Source: Spirochaetota bacterium (GTDB lineage: Bacteria; Spirochaetota; UBA4802; UBA5550). From it: DNA of 64,000 nucleotides. The translations under genes were made by a program, and so were the position numbers. The notes below the pieces were generated by a model. The model searched no databases. It was not told the origin of the DNA and saw nothing but the letters and a program-made list of their open reading frames with translations. This document shows positions 638 to 22,280 of the stretch, piece by piece. The DNA lies in NCBI GenBank assembly GCA_017999915.1, contig JAGNKX010000007.1, positions 64,488 through 128,487 of the forward strand. Direction: 5' to 3'. The first letter of the stretch is position 1. Every line of letters starts with the position of its first letter.

Positions 638-1384
638 ATGGAAAGATTGGACATATTCGGCATCGGTATAATCGATACGACTCTGCAAAACGCAAAGGAT
701 GCAATGGAGTCCATAATTGACTCCCGGCCAGATAAAACGTATTCTATAGTATTTGTCAATACCTCAACGATGAATCTCGCCATAGAGGATAGAAAGTACG
801 CGGATGTGCTTAATTCGGCGGATTACGTTTTTGGCGATGGAACGGGAGTGCGCTGGGCAGTGAGGATATTATACAAGAGAAAGCTGCTGGACAATGTAAA
901 CGGAACAGACCTGATCCCGAAATTTTTACGTGAAACAACCGGCAAAAATTACCGCTACTTCCTTCTGGGCGCCGAGCCGGAAGCGATAGAGAAGGCCGCT
1001 GAAAACGCTCCGGCTTTGTTCCCGGATTGCGCGTTGGCGGGATATCACCATGGTTTCTGGAAAAAAGAAGAGAACGATGAAATCATCAGGATAATAAACG
1101 AGTCGGGAGCCCATCTGCTGCTTGTGGGGATGGGGAATCCCATACAGGAAAACTGGATTGCCGGGAATATCGGGAAACTCAAAGTGCCGCTTGTCGCCGC
1201 CGTTGGGGGCCTTTTCACCTACTGGTCAGGTGATCTTGACCGCGCTCCTCTCTGGATAAGAAAAATCGGTATGGAGTGGCTCCATATTTTGTTCCGGCAG
1301 CCCCACAAATGGCAGAGATATCTGGTCGGAAATACCAAATTTCTTGCCCGGATATTTCTTCAGGCCGCCCGGGGGAAGTCATGA
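638..1384 (+). CDS. WecG/TagA/CpsF-family (GT26) glycosyltransferase
   Basis: Family-typical blocks: GTDLIP, YFLLGAEPEAIEKAA, AGYHHGFW, LLLVGMGNPIQENW, VGGLFTYWSGDLDRAP.W...G.EWL.ILFRQP. Confidence 0.85.
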   Translation: MERLDIFGIGIIDTTLQNAKDAMESIIDSRPDKTYSIVFVNTSTMNLAIEDRKYADVLNSADYVFGDGTGVRWAVRILYKRKLLDNVNGTDLIPKFLRETTGKNYRYFLLGAEPEAIEKAAENAPALFPDCALAGYHHGFWKKEENDEIIRIINESGAHLLLVGMGNPIQENWIAGNIGKLKVPLVAAVGGLFTYWSGDLDRAPLWIRKIGMEWLHILFRQPHKWQRYLVGNTKFLARIFLQAARGKS

Positions 1385-2241
1385 TTGATCGAATTTCCAC
1401 TATCCGCTGGCATGTGAAAAAAAGCTCGAGAAAGATAATTGCCTACGGCACATCCCCGTTCATGCGCCTGTGCCGTTCAATTCCGGGCGTCAAACCATCG
1501 GTGCGTGTGCTGACATATCACCGGTTTGGCGATCGCGCCTATGACCCGTTTTGCGTTTCGATTCCCGTCTTTTCCATGCAAATGAAATGGCTGGCTGAAA
1601 CGGGGCGCGCCGTTACGCTCGAGCAGGTGGAGGCCCACGCGTCCGGCAATGCGGCCGTTCCCGACGGCTCTGTCCTGGTAACGATAGACGACGGGTTCAG
1701 AAGCGTATATACCGACGCGCTGCCTGTTCTTCAAAAATACCGCATCCCGGCTGTCGTGTTTGTTGCGTCGGGGGCAATCGGGAAAACAGAACAGGGATCG
1801 GAATATAGCGACCAGTATCTGCTCCCGGAAGATATCAGGAAGATTTCCAGGGACGGCATTGCCATCGGGTCCCATTCGGTCAGCCATGGTTCGATGGCCC
1901 GGTTGTCTCCGCCTGATATGGAGAGAGAGGCAAGGGACTCAAGACGAATTCTGGAGAAGCTTGCCGGCAAGCCGGTGACTTCTTTCGCATATCCTTACGG
2001 CACAAGGGCCGATTATAACGATGATACGGCGCGCATATTGCGGAATTGCGGATATACTTCAGTGTATACTTCGCAGCATGGACCGGTTCATGCGGGGATG
2101 GACCCCTGGGAATTGCCGCGTGTAAAGGTCGAGGGAGGGGAATCCCTGTCCATGTTCAAATGCATCTGCGATGGCGGCATGGACGCGTGGAGGCTGGTGG
2201 ACAGACTCCTGTCCGGCTTCCAGAATGTAAACCGCAAATGA
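1381..2241 (+). CDS. polysaccharide deacetylase (NodB/CE4 homology domain)
   Basis: Motifs VLTYHRF, TIDDGFRSVY, PAVVFV, GSHSVSH. Start placed at the internal ATG 1381, which overlaps the upstream TGA (ATGA), rather than the ORF-track ATG at 1276 lying inside the upstream gene. Confidence 0.8.
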   Translation: MIDRISTIRWHVKKSSRKIIAYGTSPFMRLCRSIPGVKPSVRVLTYHRFGDRAYDPFCVSIPVFSMQMKWLAETGRAVTLEQVEAHASGNAAVPDGSVLVTIDDGFRSVYTDALPVLQKYRIPAVVFVASGAIGKTEQGSEYSDQYLLPEDIRKISRDGIAIGSHSVSHGSMARLSPPDMEREARDSRRILEKLAGKPVTSFAYPYGTRADYNDDTARILRNCGYTSVYTSQHGPVHAGMDPWELPRVKVEGGESLSMFKCICDGGMDAWRLVDRLLSGFQNVNRK

Positions 2242-2287: not shown

Positions 2288-3175
2288 ATGGATAAACAGA
2301 TCTCTGTCGTAATACCGTCCTATAATTCCCAGAAAACAATATCGTACACCCTTGATTCATTGTTGAAGCAGAAAGGCGATTACATCAAAGAAATCATTGT
2401 CGCCGATTCTTCCGACAATCCGGGGATGAAGGATATAATCGCTAAATATTCTCCGGGAGTAAAATTTATCAATACCGGGACGAGGGTCATGCCGGCGTTG
2501 GGCCGGAACCTGGGCGCCGGCCAAGCCACGGGAAAGATACTAGCTTTCCTGGATTCGGACGCGATCGCGGTAGAGGATTGGTCTGAAAAGATTGCCCTGG
2601 CATATGGGAAAGGATATAAGGCCGGAGGAGGGGGTGTCGAGCTTCCCGGGTTTCAACGGAATAATTCAATAGCTGCGGCGCAGTATTATCTCCAGCTTAA
2701 TGAATTCATTCCGGCGGGCAGGGAGCGTGTGAAATCCATCCTTCCCGGGGTCAATATTTTCTGCGAGCGCGAACTGTTCAACAGGGTGGGGGGGTTCCCG
2801 GAAGTCAGGGCGTCCGAGGACACGCTATTCGGCCTGGCCGTATCCAGGCACACCCGGTACTGGTTTGTGCCGGGTATTACCGTGGCCCATATATTCAGGG
2901 AGGATCTGAAGGGGTTCCTCAATAACCAGGAATTGCTCGGAAAATATATCATCCTGTATAGACGGAAATATTATTCAAGCCCGATTTACAGGGGAATTAT
3001 ACCCGTGCTGCTGTTCCCGGCCATTATCACGTTCAAGACACTCCGGATGATTGTGCGAATAGCCCTTTCCCGGCGTGGGGAGATATTAAGGTTCTTCAAG
3101 GTGTCGCCGCTGTTCATGAAGGGCATGGTGTACTGGAGCAGGGGTTTTTTGAAGGGGTGTTTCGAAAAGACCTGA
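2288..3175 (+). CDS. family-2 glycosyltransferase
   Basis: N-terminal ISVVIPSYN, DSD (FLDSDA) and C-terminal membrane-associated helices. AGGAAAAGG lies upstream of the ATG. Confidence 0.8.
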   Translation: MDKQISVVIPSYNSQKTISYTLDSLLKQKGDYIKEIIVADSSDNPGMKDIIAKYSPGVKFINTGTRVMPALGRNLGAGQATGKILAFLDSDAIAVEDWSEKIALAYGKGYKAGGGGVELPGFQRNNSIAAAQYYLQLNEFIPAGRERVKSILPGVNIFCERELFNRVGGFPEVRASEDTLFGLAVSRHTRYWFVPGITVAHIFREDLKGFLNNQELLGKYIILYRRKYYSSPIYRGIIPVLLFPAIITFKTLRMIVRIALSRRGEILRFFKVSPLFMKGMVYWSRGFLKGCFEKT

Positions 3176-3180
3176 GCATA

Positions 3181-4425
3181 TCAGCCTATTAATACTTCTT
3201 GCGGCAGGGCGTGGCTCAGAAAGCCTGTTGGAGAGGCGGATAATCCGTAAGCGCCGGCATTGAAGAGCACCAGCAAATCCCCCTCTTCTAGTTTCGGCAT
3301 TTTAACATTGCGCCCGATGCAATCCAGCGGGGTACAGAGGGGGCCGCAAATTTCGTAGCTGATTTCTTCTGGCATGGAAATCTTATTGGCGCAGGCAAAG
3401 GGAAAGTTTCTTTTAATGATCTGCCCCAGGTTGCCGCTTGCAGCCAGGTTGTGGTTCATTCCCCCGTCGCAGATGGCGAAATGTTTGCCGCGGCTCTGCT
3501 TAACGGCCACAATGGATGTTATATACATGCCAGATTCAGCCGTGAGAAATCTTCCCGGCTCGAGGATGATTTTCAGGTTCGAAAAAGCTTTTTCCCGGTC
3601 GATTAACTTCTGGCGCTCCCGCTTCAATGCCTGCCCCAGGTCGGCCAGGTCCAGCGGTTTCTCGTCTTCATAATAGGGGATGCCGAAACCACCGCCAAGA
3701 TCGAGGGTCGATAAAAGCAGCCCGTGATTTATTAAAATACTCTCGCACAGTTCCAGCGCATGGGCATAAAGTTTTGCCAGTGAAACTGAATCAAGAATCT
3801 GTGTGCCTGCGTAAATATGAAGCCCGGACAATTTCAGGTTGGCGCACTTCATGATAGCCTGTACGGCTTCGTTCAGCATCTCTTCGTCAAAACCAAAGGC
3901 GATCGGCTTGCCTCCCATCTGGATGGCGCCGGTTTGAAATTGATTGGACGGATTGATCCGAATGGAAACCGGTTGGTTCCTGTTTAGTTGTTTTGCCGCC
4001 TCGTTGCAGCGCGTAATTTCAGAAAAAGATTCGAGATGGATTTCCGCTATGCCTTTTTCTATCGTGGTGCGGAGGTCAATTGTCCTTTTACCGGGACCGG
4101 CGTATATGATCTTGGCGGGATCGCAGCCTGCCGCGATTGATTTTTCGAATTCACCCGGTGATGCGATCTCCGTCCCGCAGCCATTATTTACAAAAAAGGC
4201 GATGACATCATTGTGCGGGTTTGCTTTAACCGAATAAAATATATCGCAGAAAGGAAGATTCGTCCTTATCGTATCTAGTTTCTGCTTCAATACTCCCGCA
4301 TCATAGAGGTATAAAGGGGTCGAGCGTTTATTAGCTAGGTCGATAATTGATTCCCCGCCTGCAAACAGCGTGTTGTCCCTGACCTCGAAATAGGAGTCAA
4401 TAATGCTTTGCCCGACTTTGTTCAT
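3181..4425 (-). CDS. PLP-dependent decarboxylase, Orn/DAP/Arg decarboxylase (fold type III) family
   Basis: Motifs YSVKANPH (PLP lysine), GGGFGIPY, EPGRFL, CGPLCTPLD. The ATG overlaps the stop of the upstream ligase (ATGA at 4422-4425). Confidence 0.85.
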   Translation of the reverse strand: MNKVGQSIIDSYFEVRDNTLFAGGESIIDLANKRSTPLYLYDAGVLKQKLDTIRTNLPFCDIFYSVKANPHNDVIAFFVNNGCGTEIASPGEFEKSIAAGCDPAKIIYAGPGKRTIDLRTTIEKGIAEIHLESFSEITRCNEAAKQLNRNQPVSIRINPSNQFQTGAIQMGGKPIAFGFDEEMLNEAVQAIMKCANLKLSGLHIYAGTQILDSVSLAKLYAHALELCESILINHGLLLSTLDLGGGFGIPYYEDEKPLDLADLGQALKRERQKLIDREKAFSNLKIILEPGRFLTAESGMYITSIVAVKQSRGKHFAICDGGMNHNLAASGNLGQIIKRNFPFACANKISMPEEISYEICGPLCTPLDCIGRNVKMPKLEEGDLLVLFNAGAYGLSASPTGFLSHALPQEVLIG

Positions 4426-5960
4426 TGCTGATTTCTCGCCTTTAAAGCCGGATAGTCAATTTTACCGGACGCGGTTTTAGGAAGTTGGTCGACGAATTCA
4501 TACATTTTGGGGATCATGTAATAGGGCATATTTTTGGCGTTATATTCAATTAATAATTTTTGGGCCTCATCATTTTTGCCTGGTTCGAGCGGAACCAGGT
4601 ATAACTTTATTAAATGTCCCGCGTTGGGATCGCTGATCCCGATTGCTGCGACTTCTTTGATGAACCCGCTGGAAAAAACGATCTCCTCGATTTCCGAGGG
4701 GCTCATCCTGAATCCCAGTGATTTGATCATGTTATCTTTTCTGCCGACGATATACAGGAACCCGTCATTGTCCCTGTAGGCGATGTCGCCGGAGAAAACG
4801 GCCATTTCACTGCTTATCTGCCCGGCCCCGCCTCTGGGGCAATTATACTGCTTGAACCTGATATTATTTTCCTCTTCCCTGTTCCAGTATCCGAGTGAAA
4901 CGGTCGGTCCGCGGTGCACAAGTTCGCCGTGTTCCAGGGGATCGCACATTGAGCCGTCTTCCCGCACCACGAAGAGTTCATTATTTGGTATTGCCTTGCC
5001 GATGGAAGTCATGTGGCTGTCAAAGTCTTTGAACTCCAGGTAGGAGGAACGGAAGGCCTCCGTAAGGCCGTACATGAGTATTATTTCAGTATTGGGTATA
5101 AGTTCTCTCAGCTTTTGCAGGACATACGTGGGCACGGCTCCGCCGGAATTGGTGATATACCTCAAACGGGGAAGGGAGGTTTTCCCGATCGAAGAGCGTA
5201 TCAGGAGCGCCCAAATTGGGGGGATCCCGGCGAGACCGGTAATGTCATATTTTGCCAGAGCGGCGACAATTTCATTCGGCAGTCTGAATGAAAAAAAGCA
5301 ATATGTGCCGCCGGTCATGATCATGGTTACCAGTTGATTTAATCCATAATCAAAAGACAGGGGCAAAATTCCCAGCAGGACATCCTTCTCCGTTAAAGAT
5401 AAATACTGGGATACGATACGGCCACCTACCACGAGGTTTTTATGGGAAATCATGACCCCTTTTGGCCTGCCTGACGAACCGGATGTATAGAGAATGGCTG
5501 CGCAGTCGTTCTCTATCACCGGTATGTTTCTGGGGAAAACGGTCGTTGCGTCGCCAATTGTATCGAGAATGAGTATATGCTTGAGATGAGGACAATCCGG
5601 GATGATATCTTTGAGTCCATCTTTCCTGTCTCTTGATGTCAGCAGCACTGTTACCTCGACGTCGGCCAGTATATGCTGGACCTGGGCGGGTTTCAGGAGA
5701 GCGTGTATCGGGATAAAAGTAGCTCCCGTGGCGCAAATTCCCAGTATGGAAACCGCCTGCCTGTGGTCGTGGTCAAAATAAAACGCGACCCTGTCTAACG
5801 GTTTAACGCCTATTTTAAGCAATTCATCATAAACAAATGACGCTTTATGGGCCAGCTCGTCGAATGAAAGTGACCCTGAATTGTCATGTATGGCTGTCTT
5901 GGCTGGATATTTGGATAAGGATGACAAAAAACAATGATGGAGAATGTAATCGTAGATCAT
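4422..5960 (-). CDS. adenylate-forming (AMP-dependent) synthetase/ligase, probably loads the adjacent carrier protein
   Basis: AMP-binding signature ILYTSGSSGRPKGV, YGLTE, a GD..YRD.DGFLYIVGR block and a C-terminal PKT.SGKI lysine. It starts 12 nt downstream of the ACP gene. Confidence 0.85.
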   Translation of the reverse strand: MIYDYILHHCFLSSLSKYPAKTAIHDNSGSLSFDELAHKASFVYDELLKIGVKPLDRVAFYFDHDHRQAVSILGICATGATFIPIHALLKPAQVQHILADVEVTVLLTSRDRKDGLKDIIPDCPHLKHILILDTIGDATTVFPRNIPVIENDCAAILYTSGSSGRPKGVMISHKNLVVGGRIVSQYLSLTEKDVLLGILPLSFDYGLNQLVTMIMTGGTYCFFSFRLPNEIVAALAKYDITGLAGIPPIWALLIRSSIGKTSLPRLRYITNSGGAVPTYVLQKLRELIPNTEIILMYGLTEAFRSSYLEFKDFDSHMTSIGKAIPNNELFVVREDGSMCDPLEHGELVHRGPTVSLGYWNREEENNIRFKQYNCPRGGAGQISSEMAVFSGDIAYRDNDGFLYIVGRKDNMIKSLGFRMSPSEIEEIVFSSGFIKEVAAIGISDPNAGHLIKLYLVPLEPGKNDEAQKLLIEYNAKNMPYYMIPKMYEFVDQLPKTASGKIDYPALKARNQQ

Positions 5961-5972
5961 AGAAACCCGTCA

Positions 5973-6227
5973 TCAAGCCTTTATTTTGGAATTAATAAAA
6001 CTAGTAATGGATTTTATCGAATTGAAATTACTTTCATCAACCTCTTCATCCTTGATGATAACGCCGAATTCTTCTTCAAGAAACTGAATAATGGTGAGGA
6101 TGCCCAGCGAGTCTATAATCTTGTCTTTCAAAAGACTCGATTCTTCATTAATGTTATAGGCTTTGGCATTGGGGAAATTTTCCAAAATAAAATTTAAAAT
6201 ATTTTTTTGGATGGCCTTCGATTCCAT
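5973..6227 (-). CDS. acyl/peptidyl carrier protein (DltC-like)
   Basis: 84 aa, acidic, with the phosphopantetheine-site motif IIDSLGILTIIQFLEEEFG. Confidence 0.75.
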   Translation of the reverse strand: MESKAIQKNILNFILENFPNAKAYNINEESSLLKDKIIDSLGILTIIQFLEEEFGVIIKDEEVDESNFNSIKSITSFINSKIKA

Positions 6228-6435
6228 TGTTAAAAATCCTTTTAGTTATTTGCCGAAGAGTAAATATTATGTGTATCAGGAATAAAAAAAATGCTGCTGC
6301 GAAAAGCCGCCCGCAGACCGCGCTCCAGGTTGTTTTTTTTAATAAACTGAAATGAGGCAAATCTTGTGTCAATCCATTTTTTAGGTTTTAACGAATCGGG
6401 CGAAGAGTCTTGCCGATGTTTTATATCGAATCAAT

Positions 6436-7113
6436 CTATACAATTGTATCAGACCCGTCAAATGGCTTTTGAAACTCCTTAATATTTTTTGACAATTCGC
6501 GAATGGATTTATCCCACCAGGATGATTCCTTGATTTTCTTTATGGTGTCCGGGTCAAATCTGTAACGCAATATCCGGGCCGGAAAACCGGAAACTACTGC
6601 AAAATCCGGCACGTCCTGGGACACGACCGAGTTTGCGCCGATCACGGCGCCGTCGCCGATCCTGGAAACGGACGGCATTATTACGGCGTTGTGCCCGATC
6701 CAAACATCGTTCCCGATGGTAAGCTGTGTCCTCGCAAGTATGTCTTCTTTTACTAATCCGAACCAGGGATTGAAAAAGAACGCGTGAGTGGAGAGCAGGT
6801 TCATCGGATGATTTGCGTTAAAGACTTTTATTGAATTGGCAAAGGAGCAGTATCTTCCGATTTTTGTTGCGGGAGGCGTGTGTGTAAAATTAAATAAAAC
6901 AAAGCACCCGCCTTCCGAATACATGCCAATATCCAGATGGAAGTAATTATTAAAAATTTTCCTCAATGTAATGGTGTATAATTCGCCCTTTTCCAGTTTC
7001 AATATGAGCGACATTAATATTTTCCTGATTCTTAATGATTTAATAATTCCAAATGCAGGATATAAAAGATATTTTGCCAGGAAATGCTCGCATCCTTCTT
7101 TTTCCGTTTTCAT
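6436..7113 (-). CDS. hexapeptide-repeat (LbH) O-acetyltransferase, xenobiotic/CatB-Vat-like
   Basis: IGNDVWIGHNAVIMPSVSRIGDGAVIGANSVVSQDVPDFAVVSGFPARILRYRF. Confidence 0.75.
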   Translation of the reverse strand: MKTEKEGCEHFLAKYLLYPAFGIIKSLRIRKILMSLILKLEKGELYTITLRKIFNNYFHLDIGMYSEGGCFVLFNFTHTPPATKIGRYCSFANSIKVFNANHPMNLLSTHAFFFNPWFGLVKEDILARTQLTIGNDVWIGHNAVIMPSVSRIGDGAVIGANSVVSQDVPDFAVVSGFPARILRYRFDPDTIKKIKESSWWDKSIRELSKNIKEFQKPFDGSDTIV

Positions 7114-16167: not shown

Positions 16168-18108
16168 ATGTGCGGCATAGCCGGAATATACAGTGTAAAA
16201 ACAAATCGCCCCGTTGATCAATCCCTGCTGATCAAGATGGCAGACTCCATGAATCACCGGGGTCCCGATGAAAATGGATTTCACGTCAAGGGGAGCGTCG
16301 GCCTGGCCCATACACGCCTCAGCATTATTGACCTGAGCGGCGGGTCGCAGCCCATCTACAATGAAGACCGGAGTCTCTGCGTTATCTTCAACGGGGAAAT
16401 ATATAATTATGTAGAATTGCGGGCTGTGCTGGAAAAAAAAGGTCATGTCTTTTATACCCACAGCGACACTGAAGTTATTGTGCACATGTACGAGGAGTAC
16501 GGTAAGGAGTGCTTCAATCAGTTCAATGGCCAGTTCGCCATAGCCCTCTGGAATGAAAAGAAAAGGGAGCTTCTCCTTGTGCGGGACCGTGTGGGTGTGC
16601 GGCCATTATATTACTCCATACTTCCCGACGGGACCCTGGTGTTTGCCTCGGAAATGAAGACGATATTCTGCTTTCCCGGCTTTGACCCTGAAATAGATCC
16701 GGAAGGCATCAACCAGATATTTACCCTGTGGGTTAATATCCCTCCGCGGACCATTTTTAAAAATGTCAACGAGCTTGCTCCGGGCCGCTGCATGGTTGTC
16801 TCCCAGCATGGGATCACGGTGCATGCCTTCTGGCGCATGCAATTCCCCGATGAGCGCGATTATGAAGACAGGCCCCTCTCATATTATACGGAACGAACAC
16901 GGGAGCTTCTCTATGATGCGGTGTCCCTGCGACTCAGGGCCGATGTTCCCGTTGCCGCCTATTTAAGCGGGGGCCTCGATTCATCGATCATCACGTCCCT
17001 GGTGAAAAAGCATCATATCAATGACCTGGTCACCTTTTCTGTGGCCTTCGGCGACAGGAATTTCGACGAGCGGCGCTATCAGAATGAAATGGTCGACCTG
17101 TTAAAGACCGACCATCGAGTTATTGAGGCGAACTACGACACCATCGGCGAAGCCTTTTCCGACGTGGTCTGGTTCTCTGAAAAGCCTATGATACGCACCG
17201 CCCCGGCGCCGTTGTTCCTCCTGTCCGGGTTGGTCAGGAGCAACGGCATCAAGGTTGTGCTGACGGGGGAGGGGGCCGATGAGTTCTTCGGCGGTTATGA
17301 TATTTTCAAAGAGGACAAGATCCGGCGCTTCTGGGCGAGGGACCCCGGATCGAAGTTGCGGCCCAGGCTTTTTTCCGCTCTTTATCCATTCATCTCCAGG
17401 GACCCGCGCTTTGAACGGTTCTGGCAGATGTTCTTCAAGAAGGATTTGACCGATACCGGGAACAACTATTATTCGCAGCTGGTACGGTGGCACAACACCT
17501 CGCAGATCAAGCGCTTATTTACCAATGAATACCAGGAGCGCTTCACCGAGGAGAGTATCTATCATGACCTCGATGATTATATCGATCCGGATATAAAAAG
17601 ATGGCACCCCCTCTGCCGGGCACAGTACCTGGAGGCCACGCTCTTCATGTCCGGCTACCTGTTGTCGTCCCAGGGAGACCGGATGATGATGGGTAACTCT
17701 ATCGAGGGAAGGTTTCCTTTCCTTGACCACAATGTGATAGAGTTTGCCGCCACAATTCCTCCTGTGTATAAGATCTATGGATTGAACGAAAAGTTTGCCC
17801 TGAAAAAATCCTTCGAAGACTCGCTGCCCGATTCGGTCCTCCACCGGGTGAAGCAGCCATACCGGGCGCCTATCAGCCAGTGTTTCGCCGGGGACAATTT
17901 CGCGGCTTCGATGCTCAACGGGGACCTTGTTCGAAAATACGGATATTTCGACCCGGACAGCGTTGAGCTTCTCCTTAATAAGTTCAGTACCCAGAGGTGG
18001 AAGAACATCAGCGAGCGCGATGACATGACCATGGTGGGCCTGATTTCCATGCAGCTGCTGCACCACCATTTCATCGATAAGGGGATGGATGATCATCAAC
18101 CGGCTTAA
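16168..18108 (+). CDS. asparagine synthase (glutamine-hydrolysing) family amidotransferase
   Basis: N-terminal MCGIAG nucleophile, SGGLDSS PP-loop, and a length of 646 aa typical for AsnB-type enzymes in EPS loci. Confidence 0.9.
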   Translation: MCGIAGIYSVKTNRPVDQSLLIKMADSMNHRGPDENGFHVKGSVGLAHTRLSIIDLSGGSQPIYNEDRSLCVIFNGEIYNYVELRAVLEKKGHVFYTHSDTEVIVHMYEEYGKECFNQFNGQFAIALWNEKKRELLLVRDRVGVRPLYYSILPDGTLVFASEMKTIFCFPGFDPEIDPEGINQIFTLWVNIPPRTIFKNVNELAPGRCMVVSQHGITVHAFWRMQFPDERDYEDRPLSYYTERTRELLYDAVSLRLRADVPVAAYLSGGLDSSIITSLVKKHHINDLVTFSVAFGDRNFDERRYQNEMVDLLKTDHRVIEANYDTIGEAFSDVVWFSEKPMIRTAPAPLFLLSGLVRSNGIKVVLTGEGADEFFGGYDIFKEDKIRRFWARDPGSKLRPRLFSALYPFISRDPRFERFWQMFFKKDLTDTGNNYYSQLVRWHNTSQIKRLFTNEYQERFTEESIYHDLDDYIDPDIKRWHPLCRAQYLEATLFMSGYLLSSQGDRMMMGNSIEGRFPFLDHNVIEFAATIPPVYKIYGLNEKFALKKSFEDSLPDSVLHRVKQPYRAPISQCFAGDNFAASMLNGDLVRKYGYFDPDSVELLLNKFSTQRWKNISERDDMTMVGLISMQLLHHHFIDKGMDDHQPA

Positions 18109-18239
18109 AATTGACTTGACGGGATACTGGGAAGCAATAGTATATTTACAATAATCAGCCCATCCGCATGGTTTTCTAGATATAATGCTGGCACAAATAA
18201 CCCGGTAAGGGCACAATTTTATTATTTGCGAGAAATAGC

Positions 18240-18503
18240 ATGCAAAGCACCCAGGAACTGATCACGAATTATATTAAGGAAAATTTTATCACGGGGAGGA
18301 GCTCAAAGGTAGAATTGACTCCGGATATATCGCTCCTGGAAAGCGGCATAATGGACTCCACAGGCATCCTCGAGCTGGTGTTGTTCCTTGAAGAACAGTT
18401 CTCCATCAAAATAGACGATGAGGAAATCGTTCCGGAGAACCTTGATTCGGTGAGCAATATCATTCTCTTCTTAAAGAAAAAACAACCGGTCATTCAAAAG
18501 TAA
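18240..18503 (+). CDS. acyl/peptidyl carrier protein
   Basis: 87 aa with the motif GIMDSTGILELVLFLEEQF (Ser attachment site). Confidence 0.7.
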   Translation: MQSTQELITNYIKENFITGRSSKVELTPDISLLESGIMDSTGILELVLFLEEQFSIKIDDEEIVPENLDSVSNIILFLKKKQPVIQK

Positions 18504-18554
18504 AGCCTCATCAATAATTATTGAATGATCGTTTTGCCCGCTTGACGCGCCCCG

Positions 18555-19403
18555 TTACATCCTCGCCAGGGTTGCAAGAAATTTATCCGCCACTAGGATC
18601 CTGCCGGTTTCACTTAAATGGCCCCCATCATGGGTGTACTCGGGAACAAGGGAAAAATGGTCTTTCCCGGCGTTATGGGAGATGCGGCGCGTACCGTCGG
18701 GATTGGTCGATTCGTAAAGTTCAATATCAAGAATAGATTTTGGACCATATTTTTTCCTGAGAAGGGAATTGAATTCATTTCTTTTAATATTGACCAGGGA
18801 ATTGTCCGCCCTGCCGAGGATTTTTTTGATGATATGCTTCAGGTAGTATTTGACATTAATGAACTCTCCTTCAGCCGTCAAGGGCGCGGTGACATGGATG
18901 AACGTGGTCCCCGGGTACTTTTTTATCAGGCCGTCCATTGATGACGAGTAATATGCGAACAGATCGTTTATATCGGTATTTTCATCGAAATCAACATAGC
19001 AAAACTTGAAAAACGCTATGTCGGTTTTTTTCGCGACGCCGGACCCCATTGTTTTCACAAAGGCGTCCACCTTTGTCTTCGGCTTGCAGTTTTCCCCGTT
19101 TATGGAATGGGCGAATATGCCCGCATTGAATTTTTCTGGATCGATTGTCTCCTGCAGGTTTAACGTGACGGCGGGGTTGCTTTTCATAAGATTTTGAATG
19201 CCGCCGATAATATCATAACCTACCGATTGGTGGCCGAAATATACCTTTTTAGCCGACAGTTTTTTCCATTCAGCCGCGGAAACGGTCTTGGTATGCAGCT
19301 GCTGCACTGATGCTTCCATGGTTTTTCCTCCGCATGCGGATATAAGTATCAATATCGCAGTAACGCATATGGTGGAATATAAAAATGACTTAACACTGGT
19401 CAT
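18555..19403 (-). CDS. lipoprotein of unknown function, possibly SGNH/esterase-like
   Basis: Signal peptide plus lipobox (ISAC). Blocks YFGHQSVG, FKFCYVDF and THDGGHLSETG (DxxH-like) parallel the C-terminal domain of 13744..15690. Confidence 0.5.
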   Translation of the reverse strand: MTSVKSFLYSTICVTAILILISACGGKTMEASVQQLHTKTVSAAEWKKLSAKKVYFGHQSVGYDIIGGIQNLMKSNPAVTLNLQETIDPEKFNAGIFAHSINGENCKPKTKVDAFVKTMGSGVAKKTDIAFFKFCYVDFDENTDINDLFAYYSSSMDGLIKKYPGTTFIHVTAPLTAEGEFINVKYYLKHIIKKILGRADNSLVNIKRNEFNSLLRKKYGPKSILDIELYESTNPDGTRRISHNAGKDHFSLVPEYTHDGGHLSETGRILVADKFLATLARM

Positions 19404-19713
19404 ATGGTTCCCCTATGCAAGAAGTGAATTTATTTGATTATTGATTTGTATCGATACTTGTCAATACTTTTTGCAGCGGCAGCTGCCCCGTATGCAGGCC
19501 GTAGTTAAACGGCCGGTCCCGGGCCGTTATCCAATAATCTTCATTAATGCCAAAAAAGATTGACAAAACTCTCGCGGGCTCTTTATTAAGAGCGACATTC
19601 ATCACATTCCATAAGGTAAAGTCGTGCTCTGAGGTTACGCCAGGGGAACGCCAATCGTCGTCAGCCCCGCTGCGCCGAAGGGTACTGTATATTTTTATTG
19701 GACGGTTAATCCT

Positions 19714-20709
19714 ATGAAATTCTGCTCGCGCTGTGTCCTGCCGGAAACGTTCCCCGGCATTCAATTCGATGAAAAAAGCGTTTGCAACTATTGCCTGAAC
19801 GCCAATCTCCCCGATGAGGAAAAGAAAGAAGAATACACAAAGAAGTTTGAAGACCTCCTCGACAGCGTCAGGGGGAAGCAGGACTATGACGTGATAATGG
19901 CCTACAGCGGCGGTAAGGATTCCACCTACACGTTATACATGCTGGCCATAAAGTATAAAATGAGGATTCTTGCCCTGTCCTTCGACAACGGCTTCATCTC
20001 GCCGCGCGCGATGGAGAATATTGCCCACATGACGGACATCTGTGGCGCCACCAGCATGGTGGTGCGGCCATCCTTCGAGATCATGAAGAAGGTCTTTGCC
20101 GTGGCGGCGAAAGAGGACTTCTACAGCCCCAAGACCCTGGACCGCGCCAGCTCCATCTGCACCACCTGCATCGGCCATGTGAAGTCGCTGGTGCTGAAGA
20201 CAGCGCTCCAGATGGACATACCACTGGCGGCCTATGGATGGTCCCCCGGGCAGGCGCCCATAACCTCCGCCATCATGCAGACAAGCCCCCGCATGCAGGC
20301 CATGACCAACAAGACCGTTCGGGACCTGCTCTTCAGGCGCTTTCCCGAAGAGATCAGGCAGTACTTCATCTCAGACGAGGACCTGAAATACCCGGCGGAA
20401 CGCTGGCCCATCAATATCCATCCCCTGGCTTTCATGAAGTATAATGAAAATGATATTCTCAAGCTGATCCAGTCCCTGGGCTGGGTCATGCCGCAGGATA
20501 CGGATCCCAACTCGTCGAACTGCACCCTCAACGCCCTGGCGAACCATATCCACCGGGAGAAGTTCGGTTTTCACCCCTATGCCTGGGAGATCGCCGGCAT
20601 TGTCCGTTCCGGCTCCATGGACCGGGAGGAGGGGATCGAAAAGACCAATAAGCCCGAGGATATGAAAATGGTAAGGTACGGCGCTGATAAGATCGGCATA
20701 AAAATATAA
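19714..20709 (+). CDS. N-acetyl-sugar amidotransferase (PP-loop ATP pyrophosphatase, WbpG/WbuX-like)
   Basis: N-terminal Zn-ribbon CSRC...CNYC followed by the PP-loop AYSGGKDST. The length of about 330 aa is typical. Confidence 0.75.
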   Translation: MKFCSRCVLPETFPGIQFDEKSVCNYCLNANLPDEEKKEEYTKKFEDLLDSVRGKQDYDVIMAYSGGKDSTYTLYMLAIKYKMRILALSFDNGFISPRAMENIAHMTDICGATSMVVRPSFEIMKKVFAVAAKEDFYSPKTLDRASSICTTCIGHVKSLVLKTALQMDIPLAAYGWSPGQAPITSAIMQTSPRMQAMTNKTVRDLLFRRFPEEIRQYFISDEDLKYPAERWPINIHPLAFMKYNENDILKLIQSLGWVMPQDTDPNSSNCTLNALANHIHREKFGFHPYAWEIAGIVRSGSMDREEGIEKTNKPEDMKMVRYGADKIGIKI

Positions 20710-20726
20710 AAGTTAGAAAGCAGCAT

Positions 20727-22280
20727 ATGACCGCATCTCCGACCCTGATACATCATTTCCTAGAGTCCAGCGCCGGCCGTTTCCCCGACAAGACGGCCCT
20801 CATCCATGAACAGGTCCGCGCCACCTACGCGGAGATCAACATGAAAGCCAACAGGCTTGCCCGCGCCCTTGTCTCCATGGGTGTGGGGCAGGGCAACCGT
20901 GTCGCGGTCATACTCCATAACAGCCTCGAATATGTGGTGGCCTATTACGGCGTTCTCAAGACAGGCGCCGCCTTTGTGTCCCTTGGCACGGACACCAGGG
21001 CCGAAAAGCTGGCTGCCCTCCTTAACGAGATCGAGCCTGCCGCGGTCATATCTTCGACGAGGTTCGAACAGCTGCTGGAGGAAGTCCCGATCTCCGCGAT
21101 TCCCCTTAAGGCCCTGCTGCTTTCGCAGCCGAAGATGCCCTGGGGCGGCGCTCCCTTTCCTGTAATTAGCCTTGAAGACGTTTTCGCCGGCGGTGACGGT
21201 TCCAATCCGGGCCTTGCTCTCGATCCGTCGAGCCTGGCCTGTCTCATCTATACATCGGGTTCCACCGGGGTGCCCAAGGGCGCCATGCTCACGCACTTCA
21301 ATATCGTCAATAACACGAATTCAATCTGCACTTATCTGCATTTAACTTCAGAGGATCGCCAGATGGCGGTGCTCCCGTTTTTTTACGTTATGGGGAAGTC
21401 CCTTCTCAATACCCACGTCGCAGTGGGCGGATCGATTGTGATCAACAACAAGTTTGCTTACACCGGCGCGGTGGTGAAGCAGATGATCGACGAGAAGGTG
21501 ACCGGTTTCTCCGGCGTGCCCTCGACCTATGCCTACCTCCTGCACCGGTCGCCACTGGCGGCGTCCAGGGATAAGCTTGCCACGCTTCGGTACTGCTCCC
21601 AGGCGGGAGGGCACATGGCGAAGCAGATCAAGCAGGATCTAAGAAAGGCCCTACCGGAGCATACGGATATCTTCATCATGTACGGCGCCACCGAGGCGTC
21701 GGCGCGCCTGAGCTACCTCGAGCCCTCCGAGTTCGATTCGAAGATCGATTCCATCGGCAAGGCGATCCCCGGCGTCACCCTCCGGGTCCTTGACGAGGCC
21801 GGGAATGAGGTGGCCCCGGGCCAGACGGGGGAGCTCACCGCGTCGGGCCCCAATATCATGCAGGGCTACTGGAAGGACCCTGAGACCACGGCGAAGGTGC
21901 TGGACGGGAACGGCTACCACACCGGAGATCTCGCCTCCATGGACGGGGACGGATACTTTTACCTGGTGGGCCGCAAGGACAATCTTCTCAAGGTGAGCGG
22001 ACACCGGATCAATCCCCAGGAGATAGAAGACGTTATGATGGGAAGCGGCCTCCTGGTCGAGGCGGCCGTTATCGGAAAGCCGGACGATCTCAAGGGCAAC
22101 AAGCTCATGGCCCTGGCGGTACCTATCGATAGCGCCTGCACGGCGGACCGGGTCATGGAATACTGTTCGTCGAAGCTCCCGAAATTCAAGCTTCCCGATG
22201 AGATCAAATTCACCCGGGCCCTGCCGAAGAAGGCGAGCGGTAAGATCGACCGGGGCAGGTGCGGGGAGATGCTGGATTGA
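20727..22280 (+). CDS. adenylate-forming (AMP-dependent) synthetase/ligase, second copy
   Basis: LIYTSGSTGVPKGAM, YGATE, GD...DGDGYFYLVGRKD, LPKKASGKI. Confidence 0.85.
   Translation: MTASPTLIHHFLESSAGRFPDKTALIHEQVRATYAEINMKANRLARALVSMGVGQGNRVAVILHNSLEYVVAYYGVLKTGAAFVSLGTDTRAEKLAALLNEIEPAAVISSTRFEQLLEEVPISAIPLKALLLSQPKMPWGGAPFPVISLEDVFAGGDGSNPGLALDPSSLACLIYTSGSTGVPKGAMLTHFNIVNNTNSICTYLHLTSEDRQMAVLPFFYVMGKSLLNTHVAVGGSIVINNKFAYTGAVVKQMIDEKVTGFSGVPSTYAYLLHRSPLAASRDKLATLRYCSQAGGHMAKQIKQDLRKALPEHTDIFIMYGATEASARLSYLEPSEFDSKIDSIGKAIPGVTLRVLDEAGNEVAPGQTGELTASGPNIMQGYWKDPETTAKVLDGNGYHTGDLASMDGDGYFYLVGRKDNLLKVSGHRINPQEIEDVMMGSGLLVEAAVIGKPDDLKGNKLMALAVPIDSACTADRVMEYCSSKLPKFKLPDEIKFTRALPKKASGKIDRGRCGEMLD

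What the first reader, a model, noticed from the sequence alone, without database searches (positions are those of the whole stretch)
3181..6227. Coupled carrier protein / adenylating ligase / PLP-decarboxylase cassette inside the glycan operon
Three co-directional genes sit here. The first is an 84-aa carrier protein with a DSLG phosphopantetheine site. After a 12-nt gap comes an AMP-ligase (YTSGSSGRPKGV). The third is a fold-III PLP decarboxylase (YSVKANPH, GGGFGIPY) whose ATG overlaps the ligase TGA. From memory, TIGRFAMs describes exactly this trio as exosortase-A (EpsH1)/PEP-CTERM-system-associated (ligase, decarboxylase and an ACP), and its chemistry has not been assigned. The window also contains a CE4 deacetylase and an AsnB-type amidotransferase, both also members of that gene set. 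However, no exosortase, Wzx/Wzy, Wza/Wzc or priming transferase is visible. My inference is that an amino-acid-derived amine substituent is activated on a carrier protein and transferred to the polysaccharide.
Basis: partly seen in the sequence, partly recalled or inferred. Interest (0 to 1): 0.6.

Follow-up and report, generated by a model that had tools for sequence, protein, structure and literature searches.

The report
Carrier-tethered amino-acid decarboxylation cassette
Three tightly coupled genes in a spirochaete's surface-sugar locus most likely load aspartate (or glutamate) onto a small carrier protein and remove its CO2 there, giving a beta-alanyl-type building block; the gene set is catalogued, its chemistry has not been tested, and this scan has met it many times.

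Summary
On the minus strand lie an 84-aa carrier protein (5973-6227), a 512-aa adenylating ligase (4422-5960) and a 414-aa fold-III PLP decarboxylase (3181-4425), with a 12-nt gap and a 4-nt overlap.

The best family hits are TIGR03098 and TIGR03099 ("exosortase A system-associated"). Both score below their cut-offs, and this 99%-complete genome has no exosortase.

- **Decarboxylase:** far closer to BtrK, which decarboxylates carrier-bound glutamate, than to any diaminopimelate decarboxylase.
- **Ligase:** its substrate pocket matches VinN best. It has the same Asp, an aromatic residue, a Ser, a short loop and a conserved Arg.
- **Synteny:** ligase-decarboxylase adjacency holds in 26 of 31 distant loci. 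The cassette was not found in 60 close relatives and occurs in 1 of 400 phylum genomes. It lies in a low-GC Wzx/Wzy polysaccharide island.

Most likely it activates Asp or Glu at the side-chain carboxyl, decarboxylates it on the carrier, and makes beta-alanyl- or GABA-S-ACP to decorate the glycan. The transferase is unidentified, because the usual FemAB-like partners are missing here.

This scan reached the same reading for look-alike cassettes in at least 28 other genomes. I class it as a new member of a known kind, of moderate interest.

The parts
5973..6227 (-). Stand-alone carrier protein (ACP1), 84 aa, phosphopantetheine serine in IIDSLG
   Evidence: Sub-threshold hits to ACP models. The Ser is invariant and the preceding Asp is kept in 20 of the 22 related carriers aligned, Thr in L063 and L064.
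4422..5960 (-). Adenylating ligase, 512 aa, with a VinN-like (beta-amino-acid mode) substrate pocket
   Evidence: Pfam AMP-binding plus AMP-binding_C. TIGR03098 538.1 bits, below the cut-off of 592.35. VinN is the best solved match for the pocket region. Conserved Asp, short loop and Arg.
3181..4425 (-). Fold-III PLP decarboxylase, 414 aa, BtrK-like; its start overlaps the ligase stop by 4 nt
   Evidence: Pfam. TIGR03099 403.1 bits, below 478.45. BtrK 265 bits against 180 for the best DAP decarboxylase. Tree.
6228..6435 (-). AT-rich intergenic region upstream of the ACP gene; probable own promoter and ribosome-binding site (AAGGA 9 nt before the ATG)
   Evidence: Sequence. No promoter was called above chance; the promoter is an inference.
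6281..6316 (-). Terminator-like hairpin plus T-run between the upstream acetyltransferase gene and the ACP gene
   Evidence: stem 6316-6297, 7 pairs, followed by a T-run. Consensus match only.
6436..7113 (-). Context: CatB/Vat-type hexapeptide O-acetyltransferase, weak candidate for the off-loading enzyme
   Evidence: Thousands of about 50%-identical homologues named CatB-related O-acetyltransferase.
1276..2241 (+). Context: CE4 polysaccharide de-N-acetylase that could expose a sugar amine as acceptor (inference only)
   Evidence: Polysacc_deac_1 100.9 bits. TIGR03006 only 25.9 bits.

Best explanation
The three genes form a carrier-tethered amino-acid decarboxylation module. It sits in a horizontally acquired Wzx/Wzy-type polysaccharide island of an uncultured spirochaete from anaerobic digesters and wastewater. 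Step 1 (inferred from pocket residues): the ligase adenylates an acidic amino acid at its side-chain carboxyl, most likely L-aspartate and less likely L-glutamate. It then thioesterifies the amino acid to the phosphopantetheine arm of the adjacent 84-aa carrier protein. Step 2 (inferred from homology to BtrK and from gene coupling): the PLP decarboxylase removes the free alpha-carboxyl while the amino acid is still on the carrier. This gives beta-alanyl-S-ACP, or 4-aminobutyryl-S-ACP if the substrate is glutamate. Step 3 (inferred from context only; enzyme not identified): the omega-aminoacyl group is passed to a sugar of the polysaccharide made by the surrounding genes, adding a positively charged substituent. 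My rough odds for the substrate are Asp 45%, Glu 20%, another amino-dicarboxylate 15% and something else 20%.
For: (1) Anatomy. The 12-nt gap and the 4-nt stop/start overlap imply co-translation of ACP, ligase and decarboxylase. (2) The decarboxylase aligns over its full length with BtrK, the L-glutamyl-[BtrI carrier protein] decarboxylase, at 265 bits; the best diaminopimelate decarboxylase scores 180. It shares BtrK's GGM(N/H)H..AAS and GPLCTPxDC motifs, where DAP decarboxylase has AGMNDLIRPS and GPICE(T/S)GD. The PLP lysine, GGG loop, EPGR and Cys are invariant across 24 relatives. (3) For the ligase pocket region, the best solved match is VinN, which activates 3-methylaspartate/aspartate at the beta-carboxyl. 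The aligned residues are Asp (VinN D230), Tyr (F231), Ser (S299) and an ungapped short loop TEAFRS against VinN TECKRI that keeps R331. These are the residues the literature names as VinN's beta-amino-acid hallmarks (PMC11253843). The Asp, the one-residue-shorter loop and Phe-Arg are conserved in all 23 decarboxylase-linked ligases and absent from the second ligase in the window. A pocket Arg implies that the loaded substrate still carries a carboxylate, so decarboxylation comes after loading. (4) Precedent. VinN/VinL/VinO, FlvN/FlvL/FlvO, BtrJ/BtrI/BtrK and CtaD/CtaE/CtaF all load Asp or Glu by the side chain and decarboxylate on the carrier, and CtaF does not act on free substrates (PMC11284099; PMC11350588; PMC7183216). 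(5) Synteny. A ligase sits directly upstream of the decarboxylase in 26 of 31 loci with at least 36% identity, and an ACP lies within 7 kb in 25 of 31. LysA-like relatives lack both. The tree places the window's enzyme inside the ligase-linked clade, apart from the LysA-like clade and from the genome's own LysA-like gene. (6) Context. Glycosyltransferases, a deacetylase and acetyltransferases lie in the window. Wza, a Wzc-like protein, a priming transferase, Wzx and a pyruvyl transferase lie just upstream. (7) A complex prediction of a decarboxylase dimer with the ACP gave weak support: score 0.51, best of 3 controls 0.01. The mark was reached by 58 of 80 solved and 2 of 110 mismatched pairs, but at 0.60 or under by only 7 of those 80 and by both mismatches. 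The runs agree in at least 72% of contacts and the partner pLDDT is at least 80.
Against: No enzyme that takes the group off the carrier was identified. The FemAB-like GNATs (PF13480) and an unnamed roughly 350-aa protein accompany the cassette in the common form, but have no homologue in this genome. The neighbouring hexapeptide transferase is an ordinary CatB-type O-acetyltransferase, separated by a terminator-like hairpin. Both family scores are below the curated cut-offs. The ACP fails Pfam and NCBIfam thresholds. VinN K330 is Phe here. The closest solved decarboxylase acts on Glu, whereas the ligase pocket looks Asp-like, so the substrate is not settled. The decarboxylase sits on a long branch (0.82) with only one close relative at 77% identity. 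There are no expression data. The complex prediction is only weak. BtrK, VinO, CtaF and FlvO could not be placed in the tree.
Confidence: 0.6

Rival explanations
1. The module supplies a starter or extender unit to a small thiotemplated (non-ribosomal) product rather than to the glycan. The product could be made by the single C-A-T-TE synthetase at the left border of the same low-GC island, or together with the second carrier/ligase/PP-loop module at 16168-22280.
For: All characterised on-carrier decarboxylation triads feed secondary metabolites. A C-A-PCP-TE protein with an intact HHxxxDG motif lies at C19:40149-44072 in the same island. Distant relatives of the pair sit beside NRPS-like genes and a thioesterase (L019-L021). 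The window holds a second ligase, a second ACP and a WbuX/CtaC-like enzyme.
Against: The synthetase is about 24 kb away, with some 20 polysaccharide genes in between. A 57%-identical orthologue exists in a congener that lacks the cassette. The second module was not found within 12 kb of the cassette in any of 85 related loci. The cassette is embedded among glycosyltransferase genes.
Confidence: 0.12
2. A Dlt-like route. The aminoacyl-carrier protein hands its cargo to a membrane acyltransferase, and the group is esterified to the polymer outside the cell by SGNH/GDSL-type proteins.
For: The ligase and carrier resemble DltA/DltC in architecture (DltA models 162 bits; DltA structures among the hits). 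The island encodes an AT3 membrane acyltransferase next to a GDSL protein. The genome has 11 MBOAT genes.
Against: None of the 11 MBOAT matches is on this contig. AT3/GDSL pairs are ordinary O-acetylation machinery and are not known to use acyl-carrier proteins (established knowledge, not tested here). Nothing links them specifically to the cassette.
Confidence: 0.1
3. The order of steps is reversed. The decarboxylase acts on a free amino acid, and the ligase then loads the resulting amino acid (for example free beta-alanine or GABA) on the carrier.
For: Most fold-III decarboxylases act on free substrates. This was also the first expectation for CtaF.
Against: VinN rejects the decarboxylated acid and CtaF does not act on free substrates. 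The ligase pocket keeps the Arg that binds the alpha-carboxylate in VinN. The enzyme is closest to BtrK.
Confidence: 0.07
4. It is a true component of an exosortase A / PEP-CTERM system, as the catalogue names say.
For: The best family hits are TIGR03098 and TIGR03099. The nearest large clade (44-47% identity) includes loci with a TIGR03013 XrtA-system priming transferase.
Against: Scores are below both cut-offs. TIGR03109 and PF09721 find nothing in a 99.2%-complete genome, and BLAST with two exosortases finds nothing. Two other carriers of the cassette (G090, G409) also lack an exosortase.
Confidence: 0.03
5. Chance neighbours: a housekeeping diaminopimelate decarboxylase next to a fatty-acyl-CoA ligase.
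For: Sources name the homologues 'diaminopimelate decarboxylase'. The ligase also hits long-chain fatty-acid CoA ligase models.
Against: LysA model 266.5 bits, below 297.9. A separate LysA-like gene exists on C15. The tree separates the window's enzyme from LysA. The DAP-binding CE(S/T)GD motif is replaced. The ligase has the amino-group-binding Asp that the second ligase in the window (LIG2), which scores nearly as high on a fatty-acid CoA ligase model as on TIGR03098, lacks. Adjacency is conserved across distant taxa.
Confidence: 0.03

Closest known systems
VinN / VinL / VinO (vicenistatin) and FlvN / FlvL / FlvO (fluvirucin) starter-unit triads
   Same: The three parts are the same: a stand-alone AMP-forming adenylation enzyme, a stand-alone ACP and a PLP decarboxylase acting on the carrier. 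The ligase pocket aligns best with VinN and keeps its Asp, aromatic residue, Ser, short loop and Arg.
   Different: Those triads feed polyketide macrolactams in actinomycetes and come with VinM/VinK-type partners. This one is in a spirochaete polysaccharide island with no PKS. VinN K330 is Phe here. VinO and FlvO sequences could not be compared.
BtrI / BtrJ / BtrK of butirosin biosynthesis
   Same: BtrK is the closest solved relative of the decarboxylase (265 bits, full length). The product is an omega-aminoacyl carrier thioester destined for an amino sugar.
   Different: BtrJ is an ATP-grasp enzyme, not an AMP ligase. The substrate is glutamate. Off-loading is by BtrH. The two BtrH-family genes of this genome are unlinked to the cassette.
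CtaD / CtaE / CtaF of closthioamide biosynthesis
   Same: Aspartate is loaded by the side chain and decarboxylated on the carrier to beta-alanyl-S-PCP. Two parallel carrier-loading branches plus a PP-loop enzyme (CtaC) are mirrored by the window's two carrier modules.
   Different: CtaD is an iterative ATP-grasp enzyme. The product is a polythioamide antibiotic. No CtaG-like transacylase lies in the island.
TIGR03098 / TIGR03099, 'exosortase A system-associated' ligase and decarboxylase
   Same: They are the best-scoring families for both proteins, with the same adjacency and the same polysaccharide setting.
   Different: Scores are below both cut-offs. There is no exosortase in the genome. 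The usual FemAB-like GNAT partners are absent. The pocket residue is Tyr where the common form has Ala.
DltA / DltC D-alanylation of teichoic acids
   Same: An AMP-ligase loads an amino acid on a small carrier protein to decorate a cell-surface polymer with a positive charge.
   Different: Dlt has no decarboxylase. There is no DltB-type MBOAT or DltD in the island.

Membership tests
TIGR03098 (acyl-CoA ligase, exosortase A system-associated) | Score at or above the curated cut-off of 592.35 bits | tested here: not met
   538.1 bits. A relative in locus L075 scores 637.5.
TIGR03098 / TIGR03099 | Ligase gene immediately next to the TIGR03099-type decarboxylase gene | tested here: met
   4-nt overlap. 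Adjacency holds in 26 of 31 related loci.
TIGR03098 / TIGR03099 | Genome carries exosortase A and PEP-CTERM cargo | tested here: not met
   TIGR03109 and PF09721 give no match in a 99.2%-complete genome. BLAST with two exosortases gives none. The PEP-CTERM model rang in no control genome, so that search is uninformative.
TIGR03099 (PLP decarboxylase, exosortase A system-associated) | Score at or above the curated cut-off of 478.45 bits | tested here: not met
   403.1 bits. A relative in a locus with an XrtA-system priming transferase also falls short, at 454.4.
Carrier-dependent fold-III decarboxylases (BtrK / CtaF / VinO type) | Fold-III PLP decarboxylase closer to BtrK than to DAP/Orn/Arg decarboxylases, with catalytic residues intact | tested here: met
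   BtrK 265 bits against 180 for the best DAP decarboxylase. Shared motifs. Invariant PLP Lys, GGG, EPGR and Cys.
Carrier-dependent fold-III decarboxylases (BtrK / CtaF / VinO type) | Encoded with a carrier protein and a carboxylate-activating enzyme | tested here: met
   The same ACP-ligase-decarboxylase order occurs in G090.
Carrier-dependent fold-III decarboxylases (BtrK / CtaF / VinO type) | Activity on the carrier-bound amino acid and not on the free amino acid | not testable with these tools
   Needs enzyme assays. The complex prediction gave only weak support: 0.51, best control 0.01.
VinN-type adenylation enzymes (beta-amino-acid binding mode) | Asp at GrsA-235, bulky residue at 236, Ser at 301 | tested here: met
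   D, Y and S align with VinN D230, F231 and S299. Hallmarks as listed in PMC11253843.
VinN-type adenylation enzymes (beta-amino-acid binding mode) | Shortened beta13-beta14 loop carrying K330 and R331 | tested here: inconclusive
   The loop has VinN's length and keeps the Arg. It is 2 residues shorter than LgrA and 1 shorter than the second ligase in the window. K330 is Phe.
Diaminopimelate decarboxylase LysA (TIGR01048) | Score at or above 297.9 bits and the DAP-binding CE(S/T)GD motif | tested here: not met
   266.5 bits. The motif is CTPLD. A separate LysA-like gene exists elsewhere. The tree separates them.
Dlt system | DltB-type MBOAT and DltD encoded with the ligase and carrier | tested here: not met
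   No MBOAT among the island genes scanned. All 11 MBOAT matches of the genome are on other contigs.

The most novel reading that the evidence does not exclude
The two carrier-protein modules of this island work as one closthioamide-like thiotemplated pathway that ends on a sugar. The trio would make beta-alanyl-S-ACP1 (the CtaD/E/F role). The second ligase and ACP2 would load an acid (the CtaI/H role). The WbuX/CtaC-like PP-loop enzyme and the AsnB homologue would convert an amide of the assembled acyl-beta-alanyl chain to a thioamide or amidine. The finished group would be attached to the polysaccharide, giving a glycan substituent of a kind not described so far.
Probability: 0.07. Interest if true: 0.75.

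Novelty: new member of a known kind. Interest (0 to 1): 0.45.

Why it matters
TIGR03098 and TIGR03099 are still typed 'hypoth_equivalog' in NCBIfam, and my literature searches found no described chemistry for them. The pocket and motif comparisons here give a concrete, cheap test: ACP mass shift of +115 Da with aspartate, then a 44 Da loss with the decarboxylase. A positive result would assign a function to thousands of homologues (7657 proteins at E <= 1e-40). It would also predict a cationic beta-alanyl or aminobutyryl decoration on bacterial exopolysaccharides, a functional parallel to D-alanylation. This copy adds three points. The module works without an exosortase. It moves horizontally into a spirochaete glycan island. 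It can exist without its usual FemAB-like partner, so another off-loading enzyme must exist.

Tried and rejected
- **The look-up of encoding contigs was closed.** The 10-kb contig of the only close relative (P0005, 77% identity) could not be read, and with it the best chance to find a conserved transferase.
- **The look-up of sequencing runs listed no RNA holder.**
- **Exosortase near relatives.** BLAST with two exosortases found nothing within 10 kb of any of 85 related loci. This shows nothing about the rest of those genomes.
- **PEP-CTERM model.** It rang in no control genome, so its blank is uninformative.
- **Hexapeptide transferase 6436-7113 as off-loading enzyme.** Downgraded. It belongs to a very common CatB-related O-acetyltransferase family and is separated from the ACP gene by a terminator-like hairpin.
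- **FemAB-like GNATs and the unnamed partner of the common form.** No homologue by tblastn or by my own HMMs over all ORFs of the genome. The single PF13480 gene on C17 does not match those HMMs, and blastp with the window's cluster proteins found no homologue among its neighbours.
- **BtrH-family genes.** There are two, on C13 and C14, one with its own carrier protein. blastp with the window's cluster proteins found no homologue of the trio beside either.
- **MBOAT.** 11 genes, none on this contig.
- **NRPS module at the island border.** Its orthologue is present in a congener without the cassette.
- **Stachelhaus-type substrate call for that NRPS.** Not carried through, because I had only motif anchors.


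Full report
**Observation.** The three ORFs are on the minus strand: 5973-6227 (84 aa), 4422-5960 (512 aa) and 3181-4425 (414 aa). Twelve nucleotides separate the ACP stop from the ligase start. The ligase stop overlaps the decarboxylase start by four nucleotides. Pfam finds AMP-binding plus AMP-binding_C in the ligase, and the two Orn/DAP/Arg decarboxylase domains in the third protein. The small protein reaches only sub-threshold scores on ACP models. Its Ser is invariant and the preceding Asp is kept in 20 of the 22 carrier proteins I aligned from related loci. Upstream of the ACP gene lies a 208-nt AT-rich gap with a terminator-like hairpin (6316-6297, then a T-run). The trio may therefore be a transcription unit of its own rather than the tail of the 9406-to-3181 gene run. 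That is a consensus match only.

**Family assignment.** TIGR03098 scores 538.1 bits and TIGR03099 scores 403.1 bits. Both are below the curated cut-offs of 592.35 and 478.45.
- The genome is 5.46 Mb in 29 contigs and 99.2% complete. It has no match to exosortase A (TIGR03109), to the general exosortase Pfam family, or to two exosortase proteins used as BLAST queries.
- The CE4 deacetylase and the AsnB homologue in the window are generic forms, not the XrtA-specific ones: 25.9 against 276 bits, and 459 against 817 bits.
They include a Bac_transf priming transferase, a Wza-type Poly_export protein, a Wzc-like ATPase, a pyruvyl transferase, a Wzx flippase, an 8-helix Wzy candidate and an AT3 acyltransferase with a GDSL partner.
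- The whole island (about C19:40-84 kb) has 34-48% G+C against 53.8% for the genome.
- The DNA recurs in wastewater, anaerobic-digester and sediment metagenomes from about ten studies.

**What the proteins resemble.**
- **Decarboxylase.** Among solved structures its best match by a wide margin is BtrK, the L-glutamyl-[BtrI carrier protein] decarboxylase. BtrK scores 265 bits over residues 28-412, and the best diaminopimelate decarboxylase scores 180. The alignment shows BtrK-type motifs (GGM-N/H-H..AAS and GPLCTPxDC) where DAP decarboxylase has AGMNDLIRPS and GPICE(T/S)GD. The LysA model scores below its cut-off, and the genome has a separate LysA-like gene at 27% identity.
- **Ligase.** The whole protein hits non-ribosomal adenylation domains first. 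For the substrate-pocket region the best solved match is VinN. VinN activates 3-methylaspartate or aspartate at the beta-carboxyl. A review lists its hallmarks as D230, a bulky F231, S299 and a beta13-beta14 loop one residue shorter than usual, with K330 and R331 (PMC11253843). Here the aligned residues are D, Y and S, with an ungapped loop TEAFRS against VinN's TECKRI. So Arg331 is kept and K330 is Phe. LgrA needs a two-residue insertion at that loop.
- **Conservation in the ligase family.** In 23 ligases encoded directly upstream of a related decarboxylase, the Asp, the short loop and Phe-Arg are invariant. The window's second ligase (20727-22280) has none of them. Position 236 is Ala in the common clade and Tyr in the window's enzyme and a few others.

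**Distribution and synteny.**
- No relative of the decarboxylase at E <= 1e-60 was found in 60 genomes of the same genus, family and order.
- Only one was found in 400 genomes of the phylum, at E <= 1e-80. That genome, G090, is 38% identical and has the same ACP-ligase-decarboxylase order.
- In the large protein collection there is one 77% relative, then thousands at 44-49% identity.
- I fetched 85 loci from genomes and metagenomes. Among those with at least 36% identity and enough upstream sequence, 26 of 31 have a ligase gene directly upstream and 25 of 31 have an ACP within 7 kb. Two of the exceptions are ORF-calling artefacts. Four ligase-linked loci (L019-L021, L071) fall below 36% identity and sit in the ligase-linked clade of the tree; the other seven such loci, the LysA-like ones, have neither gene.
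- A maximum-likelihood tree puts the window's protein with its 77% relative on a long branch inside the ligase-linked clade (SH-aLRT 96 and 99). It is separate from the LysA-like clade and from the genome's own paralogues.
- In the common clade the cassette is flanked by two FemAB-like GNATs (PF13480), an unnamed roughly 350-aa protein, a DegT-family aminotransferase, a GT4, an AsnB homologue and a TIGR03013 XrtA-system priming transferase.
- None of the first three has a homologue anywhere in this genome, by tblastn or by HMMs I built from them.
- An exosortase is present in three of five other genomes that carry the pair. It is absent from G090 and G409.

**Mechanism.** The literature gives four experimentally reconstituted precedents for this logic.
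- VinN loads 3-methylaspartate on VinL, and VinO decarboxylates it there. The free decarboxylated acid is not a VinN substrate (PMC11284099).
- FlvN/FlvL/FlvO do the same with aspartate (PMC11350588).
- BtrJ/BtrI/BtrK do so with glutamate (PMC7857480).
- CtaD/CtaE/CtaF make beta-alanyl-S-CtaE from aspartate, and CtaF cannot use free substrates (PMC7183216).

The window's trio has the adenylation-enzyme version of this set, as in the Vin and Flv pathways. The retained pocket Arg argues that the loaded molecule still has its alpha-carboxylate, so decarboxylation follows loading. I therefore read the cassette as a maker of beta-alanyl-S-ACP, or of 4-aminobutyryl-S-ACP if the substrate is glutamate. 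The VinN-like Tyr favours aspartate. The BtrK similarity leaves glutamate open. A complex prediction of the decarboxylase dimer with the ACP gave weak support only. The score was 0.51 with a best control of 0.01. The mark was reached by 58 of 80 solved and 2 of 110 mismatched pairs, but at 0.60 or under by only 7 of the 80 and by both mismatches. The runs agree in at least 72% of contacts and the partner pLDDT is at least 80.

**The open step.** Nothing identifies the enzyme that removes the group from the carrier.
- The adjacent hexapeptide transferase is a common CatB-related O-acetyltransferase.
- The usual GNAT partners are missing.
- Two BtrH-family transacylases exist, but on other contigs. 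One has its own carrier protein.
- Eleven MBOAT genes are all on other contigs.
- A single C-A-PCP-TE synthetase lies at the island's left border. A 57% orthologue exists in a congener without the cassette.

The destination "glycan" rests on context alone. I give about 0.6 to the overall reading and list the alternatives as rivals.

**Relation to the second module.** I confirmed three things. The PP-loop protein scores below the WbuX cut-off (162 against 203 bits). The second ligase lacks the amino-acid pocket. A second ACP lies at about 18261-18482. Together the two modules mirror the two carrier branches of closthioamide assembly. The second module accompanies the cassette in none of the related loci, so I treat a joint pathway only as the most novel reading not excluded.

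**Novelty.** On-carrier decarboxylation is established chemistry. The gene pair is catalogued by TIGRFAMs/NCBIfam with unknown function, and I found no paper assigning it one. This scan has already reached the same reading for look-alike cassettes in at least 28 other genomes. I arrived at it before reading those notes. Four things are particular to this copy: a spirochaete host with no exosortase, clear horizontal acquisition, the VinN-like Tyr, and the absence of the usual transferase partners. I class it as a new member of a known kind, with interest 0.45.

Noticed in passing
window 16168-22280 (second ACP at about 18261-18482, + strand): A second carrier-protein module: an AsnB homologue, a small ACP (best match in this genome to the ACP of the G090 cassette), a WbuX/CtaC-like PP-loop enzyme (162 bits, below the 203 cut-off) and a second AMP-ligase that lacks the amino-acid pocket. 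Together with the trio it mirrors the two carrier branches of closthioamide assembly.
   Followed up: partly
outside the window: G000 C19:40149-44072 (L016:15659-19585, minus strand): A single-module non-ribosomal peptide synthetase (C-A-PCP-TE, 1308 aa, intact HHxxxDG) at the left border of the same low-GC island. A 57% orthologue exists in congener G001, which lacks the trio.
   Followed up: partly
outside the window: G000 C14:162565-163867 and C13:40141-41160: Two full-length BtrH-family proteins (BtrH_N plus DUF4872). The C14 copy is followed directly by a 96-aa PP-binding carrier protein. The C13 copy is preceded by a B12/radical-SAM enzyme. Each also has a 138-154-aa ORF of no known family just upstream.
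   Followed up: partly
G000 C19:40000-84000 (window 1 to about 20000): The whole polysaccharide island has 34-48% G+C against a genome mean of 53.8%. The ACP gene alone has 32%.
   Followed up: yes
L044:3659-5974 and L043:5690-6967: In some related loci the ACP is preceded by an ATP-grasp protein, once fused to an aminoglycoside 3-N-acetyltransferase (Antibiotic_NAT) domain. This recalls BtrJ and a sugar-amine acyltransferase.
   Followed up: no
window 3175-3181: The convergent GT2 gene (2288-3175, + strand) and the decarboxylase gene end only 5 nt apart, leaving no room for a terminator between them.
   Followed up: no
window 1276-1384: The CE4 deacetylase ORF as listed (GTG start at 1276) overlaps the WecG/TagA-family gene by 109 nt. 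The Pfam domain begins at residue 128, so the true start is probably later.
   Followed up: no
protein P0035 (metagenome): A 536-aa relative carries an AMP-binding_C domain fused in front of the decarboxylase domains. It is either a natural ligase-decarboxylase fusion or a gene-calling artefact at the 4-nt overlap.
   Followed up: no
whole genome G000: The genome has an unusually large set of AMP-binding ligase genes (60 matched stretches to TIGR03098 at E <= 0.001) and 11 MBOAT-family genes.
   Followed up: no
L105 (G090 C71), downstream of its cassette: In the only other carrier found in the phylum, the trio is followed by a 356-aa protein of no family, a citrate synthase and three further proteins (615, 715 and 341 aa) without Pfam hits. 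This context is unlike any other locus seen.
   Followed up: partly
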